From the NCBI GenBank assembly GCA_963804745.1, contig CAWDRY010000006.1, positions 8,668-40,667 of the forward strand: a stretch of 32,000 nt of DNA, read 5' to 3'. This document shows positions 15,843 to 29,083 of this stretch, one piece after another. Made by a program: the position numbers and the translations under genes. This DNA is from an uncultured Gemmataceae bacterium (lineage in GTDB: Bacteria; Planctomycetota; Planctomycetia; Gemmatales; Gemmataceae). Every line of letters starts with the position of its first letter. The first letter of the stretch is position 1. The notes beneath the pieces were generated by a model. That model made no database searches. It worked only from the letters and a program-made list of their open reading frames with translations, and was not told the origin of the DNA.

Positions 15843-16621
15843 TCAGCCCTTGAGCTTTTGAAAGATCCCGGCCAGTTTGGTCTTGTAAATCGTGCGGACC
15901 ATCTCCTCGTCATCGTGGAGCGGCTTGACTGGCACAAGGTCCATCACATCTTCGGCGCTCAGGCCGGAACCGAAGAAGCTCTGTGCTGCACCTGTGACCA
16001 TCGCGGCTAGCCCCGCATCCACTTCACCGAGAGACAGACCGAACGATAGACCCAGTTCGCGGAGTTGCTGGAACTGGAACCAGAGGTAAGTCGGTCCCAT
16101 CGCCGTCAGCACTGCATAGGCTTCCAGTTTCTCCTCCGGCACGACTGGGCAAGCCCCCAGCATACGCAAGAGGTCCAGCACTTTCCCGCGGCCCCATTCA
16201 TCGAGGCCCGGCCCGAAACTGACGGGGTTGTAGCCCGCGCCAATCAGCGACGGCGCATTCGGGATGGTGCGGGCGATGCGGGCAAAGCCGTCCAGCGCTG
16301 CGCTCAACTTCGAGATGGTGATCTTGGGGGCAAGGGACACAACCACGGCATCGGGCCGCAGATGCCCGGCCAGCGGCTTGAGGGCTTCCAGCAATACGGG
16401 CGGGTGGACAGCCACGAATACATGGTCCATATGTCCCAGCGCCAGGGCGCATCCGGCGTGCTGCGGATGGTCGGGAACTGCTCCTTGAGCTTCTTCAGTA
16501 CCTCGCTGTTCGGCTCACTGACGACCACCTCGGCAGGCATGTACTCGGCCCGTTGCCAACCGCTCAAGATAATCCGAGCGATCCTTCCTCCACCGATAAA
16601 ACCGACTGTGTTTGCTGCCAT
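15843..16621 (-). pseudogene. pyrroline-5-carboxylate-reductase-like NAD(P) oxidoreductase, one frameshift as sequenced
   Basis: AGGAG RBS and ATG at 16621. Rossmann N-terminus MAANTVGFIGGGRIARIIL in ORF 16304..16687. The remainder (VFVAVHPPVLLEAL...IPNAPSLIGAGYNPVSF...EKLEAYAVLTAMGPTY) is in ORF 15843..16430. Frame switch at about 16445-16465. Confidence 0.55.
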
Positions 16622-16769
16622 GATATTATCTCCTGTTACACAATTCATTTCCTGCTCACGCGCTGGCGGCCGCCGGAAACCAGCCACGGGTCCGGTTACA
16701 GGCGGCGCAGACGGTCAGCATCACCGGCACTTCAACCAGTCCTTTCACCCGAGAACTTTGGCAAGCAAG

Positions 16770-17063
16770 TCAGCAACAATCCGTATCCGAACAGCAGCAG
16801 CTAGACTTGCCGCCCCGCAGTGCCCCCTTGATGATCGCCGTGGCACAACCAACGCCCGAGCGGACCGAGATGGCTCCTGTGGGGCAGTTCTTGGCGCAGG
16901 CGCCACACTCCATGCAGGCATCACGGTCGGCGATCCTCGCCTTCCTGGTCTCAATGGCAAACACAGCATGCGGGCAGACGTTGACGCACATGCCGCAACC
17001 GTTGCACCGTGATTCCACGAGAGTCAAAGTCACGGAGTCTGACAAGTAGCGCAAGCCAACCAT
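16770..17063 (-). CDS. hgcB: HgcB, 2x[4Fe-4S] ferredoxin of the mercury-methylation pair
   Basis: GGGAGGA RBS and ATG at 17063, 11 nt after the hgcA stop. 97 aa: CNGCGMCVNVCPH, then DRDACMECGACAKNCPTGA, with a C-terminal Cys tail SSCCCSDTDCC. Confidence 0.85.
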   Translation of the reverse strand: MVGLRYLSDSVTLTLVESRCNGCGMCVNVCPHAVFAIETRKARIADRDACMECGACAKNCPTGAISVRSGVGCATAIIKGALRGGKSSCCCSDTDCC

Positions 17064-17074
17064 CACCGTCCTCC

Positions 17075-18222
17075 CTATGCGAACCTTCCAGCTAGCCAAA
17101 GGACCATACCGCATACTGCGGCCGTAATCTGGAGCGGGATGGCGACGCGGGTCTCGCGGCGGACACCCGAGAGCGAGGTAAAGGTCGTGGCCCCGGTGAA
17201 ATTCATGGCCATGAAGCTGGCCATGGGCAGGAATGAACAAGCACCAGCCGGCCAACCCGAGCCAGCCGCCCAGGAAACCCGGAGACCGGCCCCAGAAACC
17301 AATCATTCCCAGGACGAATGCCAAACCGATCCACGTTCCCTTGAGAGCAAATGCCCGCCCCGGAAGCCAGGGGAGCAGTGCGGCGGTCAACACGATGCTG
17401 CCCAGGTACGTTGCGAGGAAGCAGGGCGGCCGAGCAGGCTCCTACGTACAGGGTACGCGAAATCGAGTAGCCATCCGCACCCAGTCCGGCCAGGATGAAG
17501 AAGATGGCCATCGTCCAGCATGCCCACTTCATCGAGAGGAGCACCTCCACGGGGGCCAGCACCAAGCGATCCCGAAGGGGGAACTGCACCTGCCGCATCG
17601 ACGGCGTGGCCGTCATTCCGGCAGCAAGGAACGCAGGCAGGTCCTCGGCACGCACTGGGCCGTACACGACACGAAATCCGCTCCGCTTCTTCACCTCGTG
17701 GGCGGCTACGCCAGCCGCGCCAAGCTGCGGCACAACCAGGGTGCGATGAGTGACTACTTCTGCCAGTCTGGCTGCCTCGATCCGACAGACCAGCTCGTCG
17801 GTTCCAAAAGTGCCCTTGCCGGCAGCGCACCAGACGTTGACACCCCGGGTATCCAGGACAAGAATCCAGGCGTCCAACCCGCCGAGATTGGAACGGAGCC
17901 GGTCGAAACTCAGCTTGTAGTTCGCCGAAACCAGGACCGGCGAGTCTGATCCGGGGGTGCCGACCGCGTAAAGCCCCGGCGGGACGCAGTAGCTCATTCG
18001 CCCGATGGCCCAGCGGACCATACACGTGCCGAGATGGTCGGCAAGCCGCAACTGCGTGCCAATCCTGGGGACCGGACCAATCGCGGACGCCACGGTTCCT
18101 GTGATCCAGGACGCACGACAGGATTGTTCCTGCTCACCGCACGGATCTCGCTGGCAACATGCGTCTGTGACAGCCTGTTGAGGCTTGCAACAGCATTTTG
18201 CAGACAATTCGGATTCTTTCAT
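17075..18222 (-). pseudogene. hgcA: HgcA corrinoid methyltransferase, two frame switches in the TM domain as sequenced
   Basis: LVLDTRGVNVWCAAGKGTFGTDELV is the cap-helix signature (Cys codon 17827-17829). Supporting blocks: PGLYAVG, SPVLVSANYKLSFD, VVPQLGAAGVAAHEV, FRVVYGPVRAEDLPAFL. The TM part continues in ORF 16770..17393 (LTAALLPWLPGRAFALKG) and ORF 17075..17302 (MNFTGATTFTSLSGVRRE...RFA*). Confidence 0.85.
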
Positions 18223-18247
18223 GAAGGATCTCTCTTGAGATTTCCAC

Positions 18248-26813: not shown

Positions 26814-27272
26814 GATTTGTTCAGCTCCTCTTCTGCTTGAGACCGCATCACGGACAAGTATGCCTGGGGGTCCATTAGCCTGGCGCGATCGGCCTCCCAG
26901 CTTGTGGTTTCGATCACCGCCAGCCAACCCTCGCCATAGGGATCCTGGTTGACAAGCTCTGGGGTCAACTCAAGGGCCGGGTTGATCTCGATAATCTCTC
27001 CGGCAACTGGGGAATAAATGCTCACGTAGGCCTTGATCGTCTCTATCTCAGCAAACACTCCCCCGGCCGCAATCTTGGCACCTGGAGGATAGACCTGAAC
27101 GAAAGCAATATCGCCGTTGCGCTGTTGCAGGTAGTCGGTGATGCCAATGCGAACCTGACCCTTCTTCTGAGTGCTCCAGCCACAACACCCATATTCCGTC
27201 CGGGCTGTAGAGGCGGTCTGTGGCCACCCGAAAAATGAACTTGTCAACGGTTGTTTCGAGGTACTCTGGCAT
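26810..27272 (-). pseudogene. gcvH: GcvH-family lipoyl-carrier protein, one frameshift as sequenced
   Basis: N-terminus MPEYLETTVDKFIFRVATDRLYSPDGIWV in ORF 27048..27272. The rest is in ORF 26810..27556: KKGQVRIGITDYLQQRNGDIAFVQV...VFAEIETIKAYVSIYSPVAGEIIEIN...LVNQDPYGEGWL, with the lipoyl-Lys in ETIKA. Switch at about 27175-27190. Confidence 0.75.
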
Positions 27273-27281
27273 AGCGTTGCC

Positions 27282-28693
27282 TCAACGAGAATGTGCATGG
27301 ATGGCGCCGTCACGGAATCCGAGTGCTGCTTCCAGCATCGCTTCCGGCAATGTGGGATGGGCATGCGTTGTCCATGCCAGATCGTCGGCGGTAACGCCTG
27401 CCTGCACAGCCAGTGCCCCTTCGGCGATGAGGTCGGTAGCGTGCGGCCCCAGCAGGTGAACGCCCAGAATCCGTCCGCTCCCGGCCTCGCAGACGAGCCT
27501 GGCGAGTCCGTCCGTTTCACCCAGGATGCGGGCTCGCGGATTAGCCGAGAACGCAAACTGTGTGACCTTCACATCCGCGCCTGGCTCCGCGCCTGGGCCT
27601 CAGTCAGCCCGACGCTGGCGACCTCGGGCCTGGTGAAGACGACATTAGGTACCGAGCGGTAGTCCATTCGCCGTTGTCCCCCCGTGGCGTTCTCGGCGGC
27701 GACCCGTCCCTCGACCATCGCCTTATGGGCCAACATCCAGCCTCCGATCGCATCGCCGATCGCCCAGACATTCGGCAGGTTCGTCGCCAGATGTTCATCG
27801 ACGGCGATGGCCCGCCCGTTGAGCCGCAAACCGACTTCCGCGAATGCTGGTCCCGAAGTGTTCGGCCAGCGACCGGTGGCCACCAGGACCAGCTCGCCCT
27901 CGAAGACCGCTTCGCCGCCGGCACCCGTGGCTAACACTCGGAGCGTGTCACCAGTCCGCTCTATCCGCTCGACGGTGGTCCCAGTGTGGATCTGCATACC
28001 GCGGCGACGTAGCAGGATTTGAAGGCGTTTCGCGATCGCTTCATCCGTTCCGGTGGGAAGCACAGAGGACGCCATCTCCAGGACTGTGATCCGACTGCCC
28101 AGGGCTTCGTAAATGCAGGCGAATTCCAGCCCGATGACCCCACCACCAATCACCACGAGGCGCGGGGGCACCGTGTCGATGTTCAAGGCTTCGGTACTCG
28201 TTACCACGCCAGGAAGGTCTCGGCCTTCGACCGGTGGCACCGACGTAACGGACCCGGGTGCAAGAATGATCCGGTTGGCCGACTGCTCGTGCGTGCTCCC
28301 ATCGCCTGAATCAATCAATAGCGCATTCGGCCTGAGCATTCGAGCGCTGCCGTACAGCACCTTCACGCGGCGGGCCTTCAGTAGTTGTTCGACTCCCCCG
28401 ACAAGCTGATCAACCACGGTACGTTTGTAGGCCATCAGGCCGGACAGATCCACCGAAACCTGTGGGATGGACAGTCCGTACCCGCTCGCCTGCCTCGACC
28501 GAACGAGCAACTCCGCCGTGGTTGTCAAAGCTTTAGTTGGGATGCAGCCGATGTTGAGACACGTCCCGCCGATCTTGTTCTTCTCAACCAGGACCACACG
28601 CGCGCCCTGCCGCGCTGCGCAGAGTGCTGCGACATAGCCGGCTGGGCCTCCGCCCAAAATGGCAACGTCCACAGGTTCGGTGGGTAACGACAT
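27282..28693 (-). pseudogene. lpd: dihydrolipoyl dehydrogenase, one frameshift as sequenced
   Basis: VDVAILGGGPAGYVAA...GGTCLNIGCIPTK redox-active disulfide and the NAD site VVIGGGVIGLEFA are in ORF 27569..28744. The dimerisation domain with HAHPTLPEA is in ORF 27282..27572. Switch at about 27588. Confidence 0.85.
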
Positions 28694-28750
28694 AATGCCC
28701 TTCAATTGGCGAGTTGGGCAAATCCGCCAGTGCAAGACGAACAAAAACTG

Positions 28751-29083
28751 CTAGCACTTGCAGGCCAGCAGCTTTTGCGAGCGACCGATGCCCTCCTTGA
28801 CAATGCTTTCAGCGCATTCCAGGAAGTCGAGCACGCACTTGATCCGCAGCCGGTAGAAGACCATCGAGCCGCGTTTCTCAGCTTCGACGATCCCAGCCTG
28901 CTTGAGGATCGTCAGATGTTTGGACACGGTGGACATGTCAGACCCGACCAAATCGGTCAGCTCACACACGCATTTCTCCCCCGCCCGGCCCAGTTCATCC
29001 ACCATAAGCAGCCGCGCAGGATGGGCCAACGCCTTGATAATGGCGGCTCGTAACTCGTAACGTGCTTGCGTCTTGGCGTCCAT
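28751..29083 (-). CDS. arsR: ArsR-family repressor with the canonical CVC metalloid site
   Basis: GAGGAA RBS and ATG at 29083. LRAAIIKALAHPARLLMVDEL...GEKCVCELTDLVGSDMSTVSKHLTILKQAGIV...R+G..VFYRL. C-terminal LLACKC. Confidence 0.85.
   Translation of the reverse strand: MDAKTQARYELRAAIIKALAHPARLLMVDELGRAGEKCVCELTDLVGSDMSTVSKHLTILKQAGIVEAEKRGSMVFYRLRIKCVLDFLECAESIVKEGIGRSQKLLACKC

What the first reader, a model, noticed from the sequence alone, without database searches (positions are those of the whole stretch)
15843..29083. 13-kb single-strand gene string linking an ArsR regulator, lipoyl/thiol redox genes and hgcAB
Eighteen consecutive genes lie on the minus strand with no opposite-strand gene between them. 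The order is arsR(CVC), lpd, gcvH-like, osmC-like, trx-like, DGC, DGC, Tat-DGC, trx(CIPC), arsF-like, arsF-like, arsG/DsbD_2-like, DUF1573, methyltransferase, chrA, hgcA, hgcB, proC-like. Gaps run from a 4-nt overlap to 154 nt, and most are 1-100 nt. Several starts are coupled to the upstream stop (GTGA at 26810-26813; a 1-nt gap at 26357; 9, 11 and 18 nt elsewhere). The string converges at 15831/15843 on the arsR-ABC-acr3-arsC cluster. ArsR-like control of hgcAB has been reported in a Desulfovibrio-type methylator. Here the candidate regulator sits about 10 kb upstream, with an entire NADH-to-thiol relay in between. I am not aware of this gene context being described for hgcAB.
Basis: inference. 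Interest (0 to 1): 0.8.

Follow-up and report, generated by a model that had tools for sequence, protein, structure and literature searches.

The report
hgcAB tied to ArsR thiol-redox operon
In this Planctomycetota-like genome the mercury-methylation genes hgcAB lie at the end of an arsenic-regulator-led string of thiol-redox genes, an arrangement that recurs in related genomes and points to metalloid or thiol stress, rather than mercury, controlling hgcAB in this group.

Summary
Most are private 1-nt indels compared with an 88%-identical relative, which has its own private indels, so sequencing error is the likelier cause.

arsR-[lpd]-gcvH-osmC-arsE-DGC-DGC-[Tat-DGC-trx]-arsF-arsF-arsG is a conserved operon. 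It is led by a conserved promoter with an ATTTGG-N8-CCAAAT operator, present in 18 of 23 arsR upstream regions.

hgcAB, with or without DUF1573 and a methyltransferase, sits directly downstream of arsG. The junctions run from overlapping to 79 nt in about 12 independent loci. Yet 24 ArsG loci lack hgcAB, so hgcAB is a recurrent accessory to this module.

An ArsR-hgcAB link, and acr3/arsC/arsM next to hgcAB, are already published. The ArsE/DGC/ArsF/ArsG plus lipoyl-module context was not found in the literature I could search.

Co-transcription, ArsR control of hgcAB and the thiol relay remain inferences. Verdict: a new variant of a known kind, of moderate to good interest.

The parts
29109..29144 (-). 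P_arsR: -35 TTGACA (29144-29139), -10 TAAAGT (29121-29116), and the operator-like inverted repeat ATTTGG-N8-CCAAGT (29109-29128) overlapping the -10
   Evidence: The promoter scan scores 10 of 12 positions. The operator has 1 mismatch in the window. It is present with <=2 mismatches in 18 of 23 arsR upstream regions, against 0.9% of shuffles, mostly 22-25 nt before the ATG.
28751..29083 (-). arsR (110 aa), ArsR/SmtB repressor with four family-conserved Cys (C38, C40, C83, C90)
   Evidence: Pfam HTH_5, E 1.8e-11. NCBIfam NF033788 scores 83.7 bits against a cutoff of 55. Cysteine conservation comes from the alignment.
28704..28723 (-). Second, weaker operator-like repeat in the arsR-lpd spacer
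   Evidence: 2 mismatches in the window, where the chance expectation is 1.2 matches. A similar site lies in the same spacer in L161 (2 mismatches) and L133 (1 mismatch), but not in L094.
27282..28693 (-). lpd (dihydrolipoyl dehydrogenase), broken by a 1-nt deletion near 27581
   Evidence: Pfam Pyr_redox_2; the Pyr_redox_dim domain is split across two frames. After a one-base repair TIGR01350 scores 493.8 bits against a cutoff of 408.8; the MerA model stays below its cutoff. The indel is private when compared with L161.
26810..27272 (-). gcvH-like lipoyl carrier (ETIKA lysine present), broken by a 1-nt insertion near 27172
   Evidence: Pfam GCV_H scores 101.7 bits. The repaired protein scores 113.3 bits against a cutoff of 117 for NF002270. 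Indel.
26358..26813 (-). OsmC-like protein; its GTG start overlaps the gcvH stop (GTGA)
   Evidence: Pfam OsmC scores 40.2 bits against a cutoff of 27.5. It is 85-91% identical in L001, L094, L095, L133 and L155. Cys are conserved in ANTCVM and SYECR, and there is no canonical CP resolving-Cys motif.
26111..26356 (-). arsE (MTH895/ArsE thioredoxin-like, GCSRC)
   Evidence: TIGR00412 scores 100.2 bits against a cutoff of 62. Pfam Thioredoxin_3. The GxGCxxC motif is conserved.
25675..26088 (-). DGC-domain protein 1 (no signal peptide)
   Evidence: Pfam DGC, E 5.6e-12. The four family Cys are conserved.
24849..25574 (-). DGC-domain protein 2 with a Cys-rich C-terminal extension
   Evidence: Pfam DGC, E 9.1e-15.
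24771..24787 (.). 17-bp palindrome GAAGTCTC-N-GAGACTTC in the DGC2/DGC3 spacer
   Evidence: There are two exact copies in the window against a chance expectation of 0.01. It is conserved at the same spacer in L161.
24178..24729 (-). DGC-domain protein 3 with a twin-arginine (NRRRFLQ) leader
   Evidence: Pfam DGC, E 1.1e-30. There is a weak TAT-region hit. The leader is read directly from the sequence.
23642..24136 (-). Membrane-anchored thioredoxin (CIPC)
   Evidence: Pfam Thioredoxin, E 1.9e-12. The N-terminal hydrophobic segment is read from the sequence.
22894..23567 (-). arsF1 (CPTC), broken by an 8-nt insertion near 23469
   Evidence: NF040494 scores 103.4 bits against a cutoff of 60. The N-terminus is in another frame when compared with L001 and L007. 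The 8-nt insertion is seen against L161.
22834..22850 (.). Second copy of the 17-bp palindrome, inside a hairpin in the arsF1/arsF2 spacer (absent from L161)
   Evidence: The RNA fold is -22.8 kcal/mol, z -2.3. L161 has deletions here.
22381..22806 (-). arsF2 (signal peptide, CPTC)
   Evidence: NF040494 scores 107.2 bits against a cutoff of 60. The H..RCxxC motif is invariant. The family profile best matches thioredoxins in the PDB, E 0.0025-0.06.
21429..22226 (-). arsG (CcdA/DsbD_2-like six-TM protein with SPCP and FCP cysteines)
   Evidence: NF040495 scores 270.2 bits against a cutoff of 200. 16 of 28 family members hit Pfam DsbD_2. Both Cys are invariant. JGI names homologues CcdA.
20351..21352 (-). 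DUF1573 protein (signal peptide; CGC and CEC motifs)
   Evidence: Pfam DUF1573, E 5e-27. It lies between arsG and hgcA in L004, L008, L121, L126 and L155, and directly upstream of hgcA in the short contig L010, which does not reach arsG.
19591..20332 (-). Class I SAM methyltransferase with a lipoprotein-type leader, broken by a 1-nt insertion near 20068
   Evidence: Pfam Methyltransf_11. It is below every NCBIfam cutoff. It is adjacent to hgcA in L007, L155 and L161, and follows arsG at the end of L160. Indel.
18248..19491 (-). chrA (chromate-transporter family), frame-broken near 19174-19190; specific to the window at this position
   Evidence: TIGR00937 scores 224 bits against a cutoff of 171.7. 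The frame change is seen against L012. The gene is absent from L161.
17075..18222 (-). hgcA (381 aa after repair), with two 1-nt insertions near 17421 and 17227 in the membrane domain
   Evidence: NF040863 scores 326.7 bits as the sequence stands (profile positions 1-203 only) and 437.8 bits (1-324 of 325) after two single-base edits. The NVWCAAGK cap helix and the N-terminal KCCCKP are read from the sequence. Indels.
16770..17063 (-). hgcB (2x[4Fe-4S] ferredoxin with a C-terminal CC)
   Evidence: NF040864 scores 125 bits against a cutoff of 99, covering profile positions 1-93 of 93.
15843..16621 (-). P5CR-family (proC-like) reductase, frame-broken near 16430-16447; inverted relative to L161
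   Evidence: TIGR00112 scores 106 bits against a cutoff of 196.75 after repair. An 898-nt gap-free alignment to L161 lies in the opposite orientation, so the frame break is shared.
9162..15831 (+). Convergent partner cluster of the same island: arsR2, unknown Cys-tailed protein, MacB-type permease, ABC ATPase, a second unknown paralogue (frame-broken near 13752), acr3 and arsC
   Evidence: Pfam. The same genes accompany the module in L001, L007, L095, L103, L112 and L161.

Best explanation
The string is the local version of a conserved Planctomycetota/PVC metalloid and thiol-stress island, and hgcAB is a recurrent 3' passenger of an ArsR-led operon.

Shown:
- A sigma-70-like promoter carries an inverted repeat ATTTGG-N8-CCAAAT over its -10 box. 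It precedes arsR here and in most relatives.
- arsR is followed co-directionally by a cytoplasmic set: lpd in some versions, a gcvH-like lipoyl carrier, an OsmC-like protein, the ArsE thioredoxin-like protein and two DGC proteins.
- Next comes an envelope set: a Tat-DGC protein, an anchored thioredoxin, two ArsF CxxC proteins and the CcdA/DsbD-like membrane protein ArsG.
- hgcA starts from overlapping to 79 nt after the preceding gene (arsG, DUF1573, the methyltransferase or, here, chrA) in about a dozen independent loci.

Inferred:
- The ArsR dimer sits on the operator. A thiophilic ligand, As(III) most likely, binds its four-Cys site, and release lets transcription run through the module into hgcAB.
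- Reducing power flows NADH -> Lpd -> lipoyl-GcvH -> OsmC-like/ArsE -> ArsG -> periplasmic ArsF, Trx and Tat-DGC. This keeps metal(loid)-handling cysteines reduced.
- HgcAB is thereby expressed as part of a metalloid/thiol-stress response rather than in response to Hg.
- The eight frame breaks are mostly uncorrected long-read indels.
For: - Gene identities.
- Synteny anchored on HgcA in GTDB species representatives: the module is upstream of hgcAB in L001, L004, L007, L008, L009 and L012. Partial sets occur in L006, L020, L023, L041 and L049. The remaining loci carry at most a single weak hit to a module gene.
- Synteny anchored on ArsG in metagenomes: hgcAB is downstream in L110, L118, L119, L121, L126 and L155, and divergent from arsR in L100.
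- The closest relative, L161 (88% nucleotide identity), has the same order including lpd.
- Junctions between the upstream gene and hgcA are 2, 15, 28, 28, 47, 54 and 79 nt, or overlapping. In the window the gap is 25 nt.
- Operator: 18 of 23 upstream regions against 0.9% of shuffles. A promoter-like site lies at 29144-29116. A second operator-like site lies in the arsR-lpd spacer of the window, L161 and L133.
- ArsG is DsbD_2-like with two invariant Cys. ArsF has an invariant CxxC and thioredoxin-like PDB matches.
- Lipoyl groups reduce Ohr/OsmC proteins (PMC5384416).
- In P. mercurii ND132 an ArsR controls hgcAB, and a separate arsR-arsP-arsE-DGC operon is induced by arsenic (bioRxiv 10.1101/2022.10.17.512643).
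- Frame breaks look like errors. Indels are private to the window and to L161 at different sites. Each gene is restored by one base, or two for hgcA. Unrelated genes are also broken.
Against: - There are no transcript data.
- No operator copy lies within about 10 kb of hgcA.
- Several spacers of 87-154 nt could hold internal promoters. Two of them contain a conserved 17-bp palindrome or hairpin that could terminate, process or regulate transcripts.
- 24 ArsG loci with at least 2.5 kb of downstream sequence lack hgcAB, so the module does not need hgcAB.
- The genes between arsG and hgcA vary: none, DUF1573, the methyltransferase, or chrA.
- The window's own ArsG does not reach Pfam DsbD_2 at E <= 0.1.
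- The OsmC-like protein lacks the canonical resolving Cys, and the GcvH is just under the NCBIfam cutoff.
- The arsF1 lesion is an 8-nt insertion, and the proC-like break is shared with L161. Neither looks like random read error.
Confidence: 0.55

Rival explanations
1. Island co-location without functional coupling. hgcAB, chrA, DUF1573 and the methyltransferase are independently transcribed cargo. They accumulate beside a metalloid-resistance island because such islands are hotspots for horizontally acquired genes. ArsR controls only its proximal genes.
For: - hgcAB phylogeny is known to be shaped by horizontal transfer (PMC7438021).
- The genes between arsG and hgcA vary between loci.
- 24 ArsG loci lack hgcAB.
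- The operator is found only at arsR and in the arsR-lpd spacer.
- Spacers of 87-154 nt, some with palindromes, lie within the string.
- proC-like joined the string through an inversion.
Against: - hgcA is always on the same strand and is tightly abutted to the preceding gene, from overlapping to 79 nt, in loci whose HgcA and ArsG are only 50-75% identical to the window's.
- In L004 and L155 hgcAB is flanked on both sides by trx-arsF-arsG sets.
- In L100 hgcAB diverges from the arsR operator region.
- No terminators lie between the genes.
Confidence: 0.25
2. Decaying locus. The frame breaks are real, so hgcA (membrane domain), lpd, gcvH, arsF1, chrA, the methyltransferase and proC-like are pseudogenes. 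The string is then a relic with no current function in this organism.
For: - There are eight frame-breaking events in 13.2 kb.
- The arsF1 lesion is an 8-nt imperfect tandem duplication.
- The proC-like break is shared with L161 across a gap-free 898-nt alignment.
- Most indels are not in long homopolymers.
Against: - L161 carries its own, different 1-nt indels in lpd, the methyltransferase, hgcA and hgcB.
- There are no in-frame stop codons or larger deletions. The shifted segments keep the same identity to homologues as the unshifted ones, 55-76%.
- Single-base edits restore full-length matches to the family models.
- Unrelated genes elsewhere in the window are also broken.
- The 'contig_N' name of L161 suggests a long-read assembly (inference).
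Confidence: 0.12
3. The module is what its NCBIfam names say: an ArsEFG-type system for aromatic (nitrophenyl) arsenicals, with ArsG acting as an efflux permease rather than a thiol-electron conduit. hgcAB is attached because its native substrate is an arsenical, not because of any thiol relay.
For: - ArsE, ArsF and ArsG all score above the NCBIfam cutoffs.
- ArsEFG is cited as conferring organoarsenical resistance, with ArsG as an efflux transporter (PMC9144182, citing Chen et al. 2019).
- acr3, arsC, arsA and arsD are neighbours.
- A link between hgcAB and arsenic is proposed in the literature (bioRxiv 10.1101/2022.10.17.512643).
Against: - ArsG-family members match DsbD_2/CcdA and keep the two membrane cysteines typical of thiol-disulfide transporters.
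- ArsF has an invariant CxxC thioredoxin-like signature rather than any flavin or nitroreductase domain.
- The primary ArsEFG paper could not be read here.
- The environmental Planctomycetota MAGs come from lakes, sediments and fens, where nitro-aromatic arsenicals are unlikely to be a main selective agent (inference).
Confidence: 0.15

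Closest known systems
arsR2-hgcA-hgcB operon of Pseudodesulfovibrio mercurii ND132 (Gionfriddo et al., bioRxiv 10.1101/2022.10.17.512643; Goñi-Urriza et al. 2020 as cited there)
   Same: An ArsR/SmtB repressor with a multi-cysteine site lies upstream of, and co-directional with, hgcAB. 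The response to arsenic is documented for that system.
   Different: - In ND132 arsR abuts hgcA. Here 14 genes (about 10.9 kb) lie between them.
- The cysteine layout differs: C38/C40/C83/C90 here against C47/C49/C86/C88 in ND132.
- In L020, L023 and L041 the regulator directly upstream of hgcA resembles the window's second ArsR (arsR2, 36-45% identity), not this one.
- No expression data exist for this lineage.
hgcAB neighbourhoods with acr3, arsC, arsM and arsR in diverse MAGs (McDaniel et al. 2020, PMC7438021, Fig. 6; Peterson et al. 2025, PMC11984097, Fig. 4)
   Same: hgcAB is embedded among arsenic-resistance genes. arsR-like genes are most common with PVC (Kiritimatiellae) hgcA. acr3 and arsC are present here too.
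   Different: Those papers do not mention ArsE, DGC, ArsF, ArsG/CcdA-like, lipoyl (Lpd/GcvH/OsmC) or DUF1573 genes. They also do not describe a conserved multi-gene operon with hgcAB at its 3' end.
ND132 'operon C': arsR5-arsP-arsE(PF13192)-DGC(PF08859), induced by arsenic (same preprint)
   Same: It has the ArsR + ArsE + DGC-domain combination, and it is co-induced with hgcAB by arsenic.
   Different: - In ND132 it lies elsewhere in the genome, not next to hgcAB.
- It has ArsP but no ArsF, ArsG, Trx, Lpd, GcvH or OsmC.
arsEFG of Shewanella putrefaciens (Chen, Zhang, Rosen 2019, cited in PMC9144182; source of the NCBIfam names)
   Same: All three families are matched above the curated cutoffs.
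   Different: - Here ArsF is duplicated.
- DGC and thioredoxin genes lie between arsE and arsF.
- A lipoyl module is attached and hgcAB follows.
- The sequence features point to thiol-disulfide chemistry.
- The published activity could not be checked.
CcdA/DsbD-type transmembrane thiol-disulfide relays (Pfam DsbD_2/DsbD_TM; established biochemistry, my own knowledge)
   Same: It has a six-TM protein with one Cys-Pro motif in each half, a cytoplasmic thioredoxin-like donor, and exported CxxC acceptors.
   Different: - There are no cytochrome c maturation genes.
- The module is under an ArsR promoter.
- The window's ArsG itself misses the Pfam threshold.
- No solved structure is matched by sequence.
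Lipoyl-dependent Ohr/OsmC peroxidase systems (Lpd + lipoylated protein + Ohr/OsmC; PMC5384416 and Cussiol et al. 2010 cited there; L and H proteins with OsmC in Trichomonas)
   Same: The lpd, H-protein-like and OsmC-like genes are adjacent and translationally coupled (gaps of 9 and -4 nt).
   Different: - The OsmC-like protein lacks the canonical resolving Cys motif.
- lpd is absent from several versions (L001, L095).
- The metalloid-regulon context is not described for those systems.

Membership tests
HgcA (mercury-methylation corrinoid protein) | Score above the NCBIfam NF040863 equivalog cutoff (275 bits) | tested here: met
   326.7 bits as the sequence stands and 437.8 bits after two single-base repairs.
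HgcA (mercury-methylation corrinoid protein) | Cap-helix motif N(V/I)WCA(A/G)GK | tested here: met
   GVNVWCAAGKGTF is present in the translation. The motif definition is from my own knowledge.
HgcA (mercury-methylation corrinoid protein) | Continuous C-terminal transmembrane domain | tested here: not met
   As the sequence stands, the frame changes near 17421 and 17227, so only profile positions 1-203 of 325 are in one frame. The domain is restored by removing two bases. Whether the breaks are real is unresolved.
HgcA (mercury-methylation corrinoid protein) | Hg methylation activity | not testable with these tools
   This needs culture or heterologous assays.
HgcB | NF040864 equivalog cutoff (99 bits), two CX2CX2CX3C motifs, and a C-terminal Cys pair, encoded directly after hgcA | tested here: met
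   125 bits, covering profile positions 1-93 of 93. The sequence ends ...CCCSDTDCC. The gap after hgcA is 11 nt.
ArsR/SmtB metalloregulator | Winged-helix HTH_5 domain above the cutoffs | tested here: met
   Pfam HTH_5 scores 44.2 bits against 22. NF033788 scores 83.7 bits against 55.
ArsR/SmtB metalloregulator | Canonical R773-type As(III) site (Cys32, Cys34, Cys37 on helix 3) | tested here: not met
   The CVC motif is present (C38, C40), but the third Cys at +3 is Thr. Two further Cys (C83, C90) are conserved across the subfamily instead. The R773 site is as described in bioRxiv 10.1101/2022.10.17.512643.
ArsR/SmtB metalloregulator | Binds an inverted repeat over its own promoter and is released by the effector | not testable with these tools
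   A conserved candidate operator was found. Binding itself needs EMSA or footprinting.
ArsEFG (NCBIfam TIGR00412 / NF040494 / NF040495) | All three families above their curated cutoffs | tested here: met
   ArsE scores 100.2 against 62. The two ArsF score 103.4 and 107.2 against 60. ArsG scores 270.2 against 200.
ArsEFG (NCBIfam TIGR00412 / NF040494 / NF040495) | Nitro-aromatic arsenical reduction and efflux activity | not testable with these tools
   The primary paper is not held. The sequence features suggest thiol-disulfide chemistry.
CcdA/DsbD transmembrane thiol-disulfide transporters | Match to Pfam DsbD_2/DsbD_TM and two conserved membrane cysteines | tested here: inconclusive
   16 of 28 ArsG-family members match DsbD_2 (best E 2.3e-17), but the window's protein does not at E <= 0.1. 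Cys23 and Cys141 are invariant, in SPCP and FCP motifs.
Dihydrolipoyl dehydrogenase (Lpd/E3) | TIGR01350 cutoff of 408.8 bits, and the CxxxxC redox disulfide | tested here: met
   383.6 bits as the sequence stands and 493.8 bits after a one-base repair. The CLNIGC motif is present. The MerA model scores 366 bits, below its 454 cutoff.
Glycine-cleavage H protein | NCBIfam subfamily/equivalog cutoff, and the lipoyl-lysine motif | tested here: not met
   113.3 bits against 117 (NF002270) and 98.4 against 115.85 (TIGR00527). Pfam GCV_H is met and the ETIKA lysine is present. It is therefore 'GcvH-like'.
OsmC/Ohr peroxidase | Pfam OsmC domain plus both catalytic cysteines (peroxidatic and resolving) | tested here: inconclusive
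   The domain is met, at 40.2 bits against 27.5. One Cys sits in the expected ANTCVM context. The usual CP-motif Cys is replaced, and another conserved Cys (SYECR) is present.
Pyrroline-5-carboxylate reductase (ProC) | TIGR00112 cutoff of 196.75 bits | tested here: not met
   106 bits after repair. It is a P5CR-fold reductase of unknown substrate. It recurs in the island in L103, L127, L155 and L161.
Single operon | Co-directional genes, short gaps and no terminators | tested here: met
   Spacers of 87-154 nt and two hairpins leave room for internal signals.
Single operon | One transcript from P_arsR to hgcB | not testable with these tools
   This needs RNA-seq or RT-PCR.

The most novel reading that the evidence does not exclude
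In Planctomycetota and related PVC bacteria, HgcAB is not a stand-alone enzyme pair. It is the terminal step of an ArsR-gated, thiol-relay-fed pathway for soft metal(loid)s. Its conserved neighbours are ArsG, ArsF, the anchored thioredoxin, the DGC proteins, DUF1573 and the leader-bearing methyltransferase. These would be the long-sought accessory factors for HgcAB: substrate capture and hand-off, and keeping the Cys ligands reduced. Alternatively, they would indicate that the native substrate is an arsenic species rather than Hg(II).
Probability: 0.2. Interest if true: 0.85.

Novelty: new variant of a known kind. Interest (0 to 1): 0.6.

Why it matters
- The native role and the regulation of hgcAB are open questions. 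PVC bacteria are among the most abundant hgcA carriers in lakes and sediments.
- Suppose hgcAB in this group is read from a metalloid/thiol-stress operon. Then hgcA gene counts would predict methylmercury production poorly, and arsenic or thiol chemistry could set expression.
- The conserved neighbours give a concrete, testable list of candidate partners for HgcAB.
- The operator ATTTGG-N8-CCAAAT gives a handle for EMSA and reporter assays.
- The result also flags a practical issue. This sequence and its closest relative carry many single-base indels, so automated annotation will call hgcA and several neighbours as fragments or pseudogenes.

Tried and rejected
- Exact look-ups of the source contig failed, and the cluster listing gave no accession. 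The organism is therefore inferred only from the nearest HgcA and ArsG hits, which are Planctomycetota MAGs.
- Sequence and profile searches of ArsG against PDB chains gave only noise.
- A codon-score ORF filter and a GC3 frame plot were too coarse to count frameshifts across the whole window. Frameshifts were instead called from homologue alignments.
- The sigma-70-like site at 24757-24728 was rejected as the DGC3 promoter, because its -10 overlaps the start codon.
- The window was searched for more ArsR operator copies near hgcA, DGC3, arsF or arsG. Only the arsR site and a weak arsR-lpd spacer site were found, and two such matches are within chance expectation.
- Rfam found no RNA family in the window.
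- The primary ArsEFG paper is not held.
- I considered MerA for the flavoprotein and rejected it: 366 bits against a 454 cutoff, while the Lpd model passes.
- I considered true ProC and rejected it as below cutoff.
- I considered a fused HgcAB for the 16770-17393 ORF and rejected it. The HgcAB_like model is below cutoff, and separate HgcA and HgcB models fit after repair.

Full report
**Observation.** The ORF map and translations show a continuous run of minus-strand reading frames from 29083 (arsR ATG) to 15843 (stop of a P5CR-like gene). They also sharpen three of them.
- The small thioredoxin at 26111-26356 is an MTH895/ArsE family protein (100 bits, cutoff 62).
- The two unassigned proteins at 22894-23567 and 22381-22806 are ArsF family (103 and 107 bits, cutoff 60).
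- The membrane protein at 21429-22226 is ArsG family (270 bits, cutoff 200).

With the most plausible starts, the spacers in gene order are 57, 9, -4, 1, 22, 100, 119, 41, ~74, 87, 154, 76, 18, 99-137, 25, 11 and 148 nt. The plus-strand cluster that converges at 15831 is arsR2, an unknown protein, a MacB-type permease, an ABC ATPase, a second unknown paralogue, acr3 and arsC. No intergenic intrinsic terminator met the scan's criteria, and no Rfam family matched.

Comparison with homologues shows frame changes inside seven of the 18 genes.
- lpd: the dimerisation domain is split between two frames.
- gcvH.
- arsF1.
- The methyltransferase.
- chrA.
- hgcA: two changes, both in the membrane domain. 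Only profile positions 1-203 of 325 are in one frame.
- The proC-like gene.

A close relative was recovered through the ArsG protein search: ENA ERZ25039519 contig_67086, held as L161. It is about 88% identical in DNA across the string. The base-level alignment shows the following.
- The window has private 1-nt indels at 27581, 27172, 20068, 17421 and 17227.
- The window has an 8-nt insertion at 23469.
- L161 has its own private 1-nt indels in lpd, the methyltransferase, hgcA and hgcB.
- Only the proC-like break is shared, across an 898-nt gap-free alignment.

One-base edits restore every gene. Repaired HgcA scores 437.8 bits over profile positions 1-324 of 325. Repaired Lpd scores 493.8 bits against a cutoff of 408.8. 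Two unrelated genes elsewhere in the window are also broken. I therefore rate most breaks as assembly indels, at roughly three to one. The arsF1 insertion and the shared proC-like break may be genuine.

**Is the gene order more than chance?** Two independent scans say yes.

The first scan was anchored on HgcA in one genome per GTDB species. The best hits, 57-66% identity, are Planctomycetota MAGs. tblastn with the window's proteins gives these orders.
- L001: acr3 on the opposite strand, then arsR-gcvH-osmC-arsE-DGC-DGC-arsF-arsF-arsG-hgcA-hgcB-arsR2-unk-unk-macB-ABC.
- L007: arsR-arsE-gcvH-DGC-DGC-arsF-arsF-arsG-MTase-hgcA-hgcB.
- L004: TatDGC-arsF-trx-arsF-arsG-DUF1573-hgcA-hgcB-trx-arsF-arsG.
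- L009: arsR-arsE-arsF-arsG-hgcA-hgcB.
- L012 and L008 have shorter versions.
- Lentisphaerae, Verrucomicrobia and Phycisphaerae loci (L020, L023, L041, L006) keep arsE, Tat-DGC and trx near hgcAB.
- The remaining loci show at most a single weak hit to one module gene.

The second scan was anchored on ArsG in metagenome contigs.
- hgcAB follows arsG in L110, L118, L119, L121, L126 and L155. L155 has arsG-DUF1573-MTase-hgcA-hgcB, as in the window. Its long co-directional string also contains acr3 and the proC-like gene.
- In L100 hgcAB is transcribed divergently from arsR.
- 24 loci with at least 2.5 kb downstream of arsG have no hgcAB. These include L094 (arsR-lpd-gcvH-osmC-arsE-DGC-DGC-trx-arsF-arsF-arsG) and L095/L097.
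- In several of these loci arsG is followed by the unk-unk-macB-ABC-arsR2 cluster (L103, L112). That is the cluster found after hgcB in L001 and L007.

The simplest reading is that the thiol module is the primary unit and hgcAB is a recurrent insertion at its 3' end. The junctions are tight. The distance from the upstream stop to the hgcA start is 2, 15, 28, 28, 47, 54 or 79 nt, or overlapping. In the window it is 25 nt.

**Regulatory signals.** The 120 nt upstream of arsR align by eye across loci. The shared layout is TTGACA, 17 nt, TAAAcT, with the inverted repeat ATTTGG-N8-CCAAAT covering the -10 box.
- The window copy is at 29109-29128 with one mismatch. The promoter scan finds its hexamers at 29144-29116.
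- The repeat occurs with at most two mismatches in 18 of 23 arsR upstream regions, against 0.9% of shuffles. It usually lies 22-25 nt before the ATG. It is perfect in L161.
- A weaker copy sits in the arsR-lpd spacer in the window, L161 and L133.
- No copy lies near hgcA.
- The ArsR subfamily conserves four cysteines: CVC at 38/40, plus C83 and C90. This is neither the R773 three-Cys site nor the ND132 ArsR2 pattern of C47/C49/C86/C88 (bioRxiv 10.1101/2022.10.17.512643).
- Two spacers (DGC2/DGC3 and arsF1/arsF2) hold an exact 17-bp palindrome, GAAGTCTC-N-GAGACTTC. The chance expectation is 0.01 copies. The first copy is conserved in L161. Its role is open; it could be an RNA hairpin, an operator or a small repeat element.

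**How it probably works.** The following steps are inferred.
- ArsG-family proteins match Pfam DsbD_2 in 16 of 28 members, and keep one invariant Cys-Pro motif in each half.
- ArsF proteins keep an invariant H..RCxxC motif, and their profile best matches thioredoxins in the PDB.
- ArsE keeps GxGCxxC, and the DGC proteins keep four Cys.
- Reading the leader sequences directly, Tat-DGC, the CIPC thioredoxin, both ArsF proteins, DUF1573 and the methyltransferase are outside the cytoplasm. Lpd, GcvH-like, OsmC-like, ArsE and DGC1/2 are inside it.
- This is the layout of a CcdA/DsbD-type reductant export line fed from the cytoplasm.
- Lipoyl groups are the physiological reductants of Ohr/OsmC proteins, and Lpd recycles them with NADH (PMC5384416).
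- The OsmC-like protein here is the best-conserved member of the module, at 85-91% identity. It lacks the canonical resolving cysteine, so its substrate is uncertain.

Putting this together, derepression of P_arsR by a thiophilic metalloid would switch on a thiol-maintenance and metal-handling set and, by read-through, hgcAB.

**Comparison with what is known.** The following are published.
- ArsR control of hgcAB (ND132).
- hgcAB flanked by acr3, arsC, arsM and arsR (PMC7438021).
- arsR-like genes most often found with PVC hgcA (PMC11984097).
- In ND132, an arsR-arsP-arsE-DGC operon that is induced by arsenic together with hgcAB but lies elsewhere in the genome.

My full-text searches found no paper that places ArsE, DGC, ArsF, ArsG/CcdA-like, Lpd/GcvH/OsmC or DUF1573 genes in one unit with hgcAB. 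The library is incomplete, so this absence is provisional. HgcA here has the N-terminal Cys-rich (KCCCKP) extension described by Haft and Gwadz (bioRxiv 10.1101/2022.07.06.499078), as do the relatives.

**Verdict.** The interpretation passes its own comparative test but remains unproven at the transcript and biochemical level. It is a new variant of the known arsR/ars-hgcAB association. It is conserved across Planctomycetota, with looser forms in other PVC lineages, and it yields specific testable elements: an operator and a list of candidate partner genes.

Noticed in passing
window 5702-6547 (-) and 8107-9000 (-): These are two SIMPL/DUF541 paralogues in a lower-GC stretch. The first is frame-broken. 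Its N-terminal 103 aa (ORF 6173-6547) are 84% identical to the intact copy, while its C-terminal half lies in ORF 5702-6118.
   Followed up: partly
window 9880-10716 (+) and 13368-14080 (+); L001 12452-14200; L103, L112, L114: These are tandem or repeated paralogues of a protein with no Pfam or NCBIfam match and a Cys-Gly-rich C-terminus (..CGPGGCG..). They always lie next to a MacB-type permease, an ABC ATPase and a second ArsR. This cluster follows arsG where hgcAB is absent, and follows hgcB in L001 and L007.
   Followed up: partly
window 22834-22850 and 24771-24787; L161 7521-7537: An exact 17-bp palindrome, GAAGTCTC-N-GAGACTTC, lies inside longer hairpins in two intergenic spacers of the string. 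One copy is conserved in the closest relative, and the other is missing there. Its function is unknown.
   Followed up: partly
window 15842-16739 versus L161 13776-14673: The proC-like gene is inverted relative to the closest relative, where it forms an arsC-acr3-proC unit on the opposite strand. The breakpoint lies just after the hgcB stop. The frame break in this gene is shared by both sequences.
   Followed up: partly
window ~23461-23477: The arsF1 frame break is an 8-nt insertion that looks like an imperfect tandem duplication (GCGCTGGA / GCGCCTGGA). It differs from the other breaks, which are 1-nt indels.
   Followed up: no
L004 5637-7790 and L155 15123-17421: In two divergent loci hgcAB is flanked on both sides by trx-arsF-arsG sets. 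A second copy of the envelope module follows hgcB.
   Followed up: no
L100 1-5654: hgcB-hgcA lie on the opposite strand, directly upstream of arsR-arsE-arsF-arsF-arsG. The ArsR operator-like repeat lies in the shared intergenic region, so this is a divergent version of the same linkage.
   Followed up: partly
window 19591-20332 (-): The methyltransferase next to hgcA has an N-terminal lipoprotein-type leader (..LTAC..), which is odd for a SAM-dependent enzyme. It is 66-83% identical in L007, L155 and L160, and about 80% identical in DNA in L161. It is always next to hgcA or arsG, and it is below every NCBIfam cutoff, including ArsM and CpaM.
   Followed up: partly
window 2605-5641 (-): Large leucine-rich-repeat and LCCL-domain proteins lie upstream of the island. 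They are unrelated to the finding.
   Followed up: no
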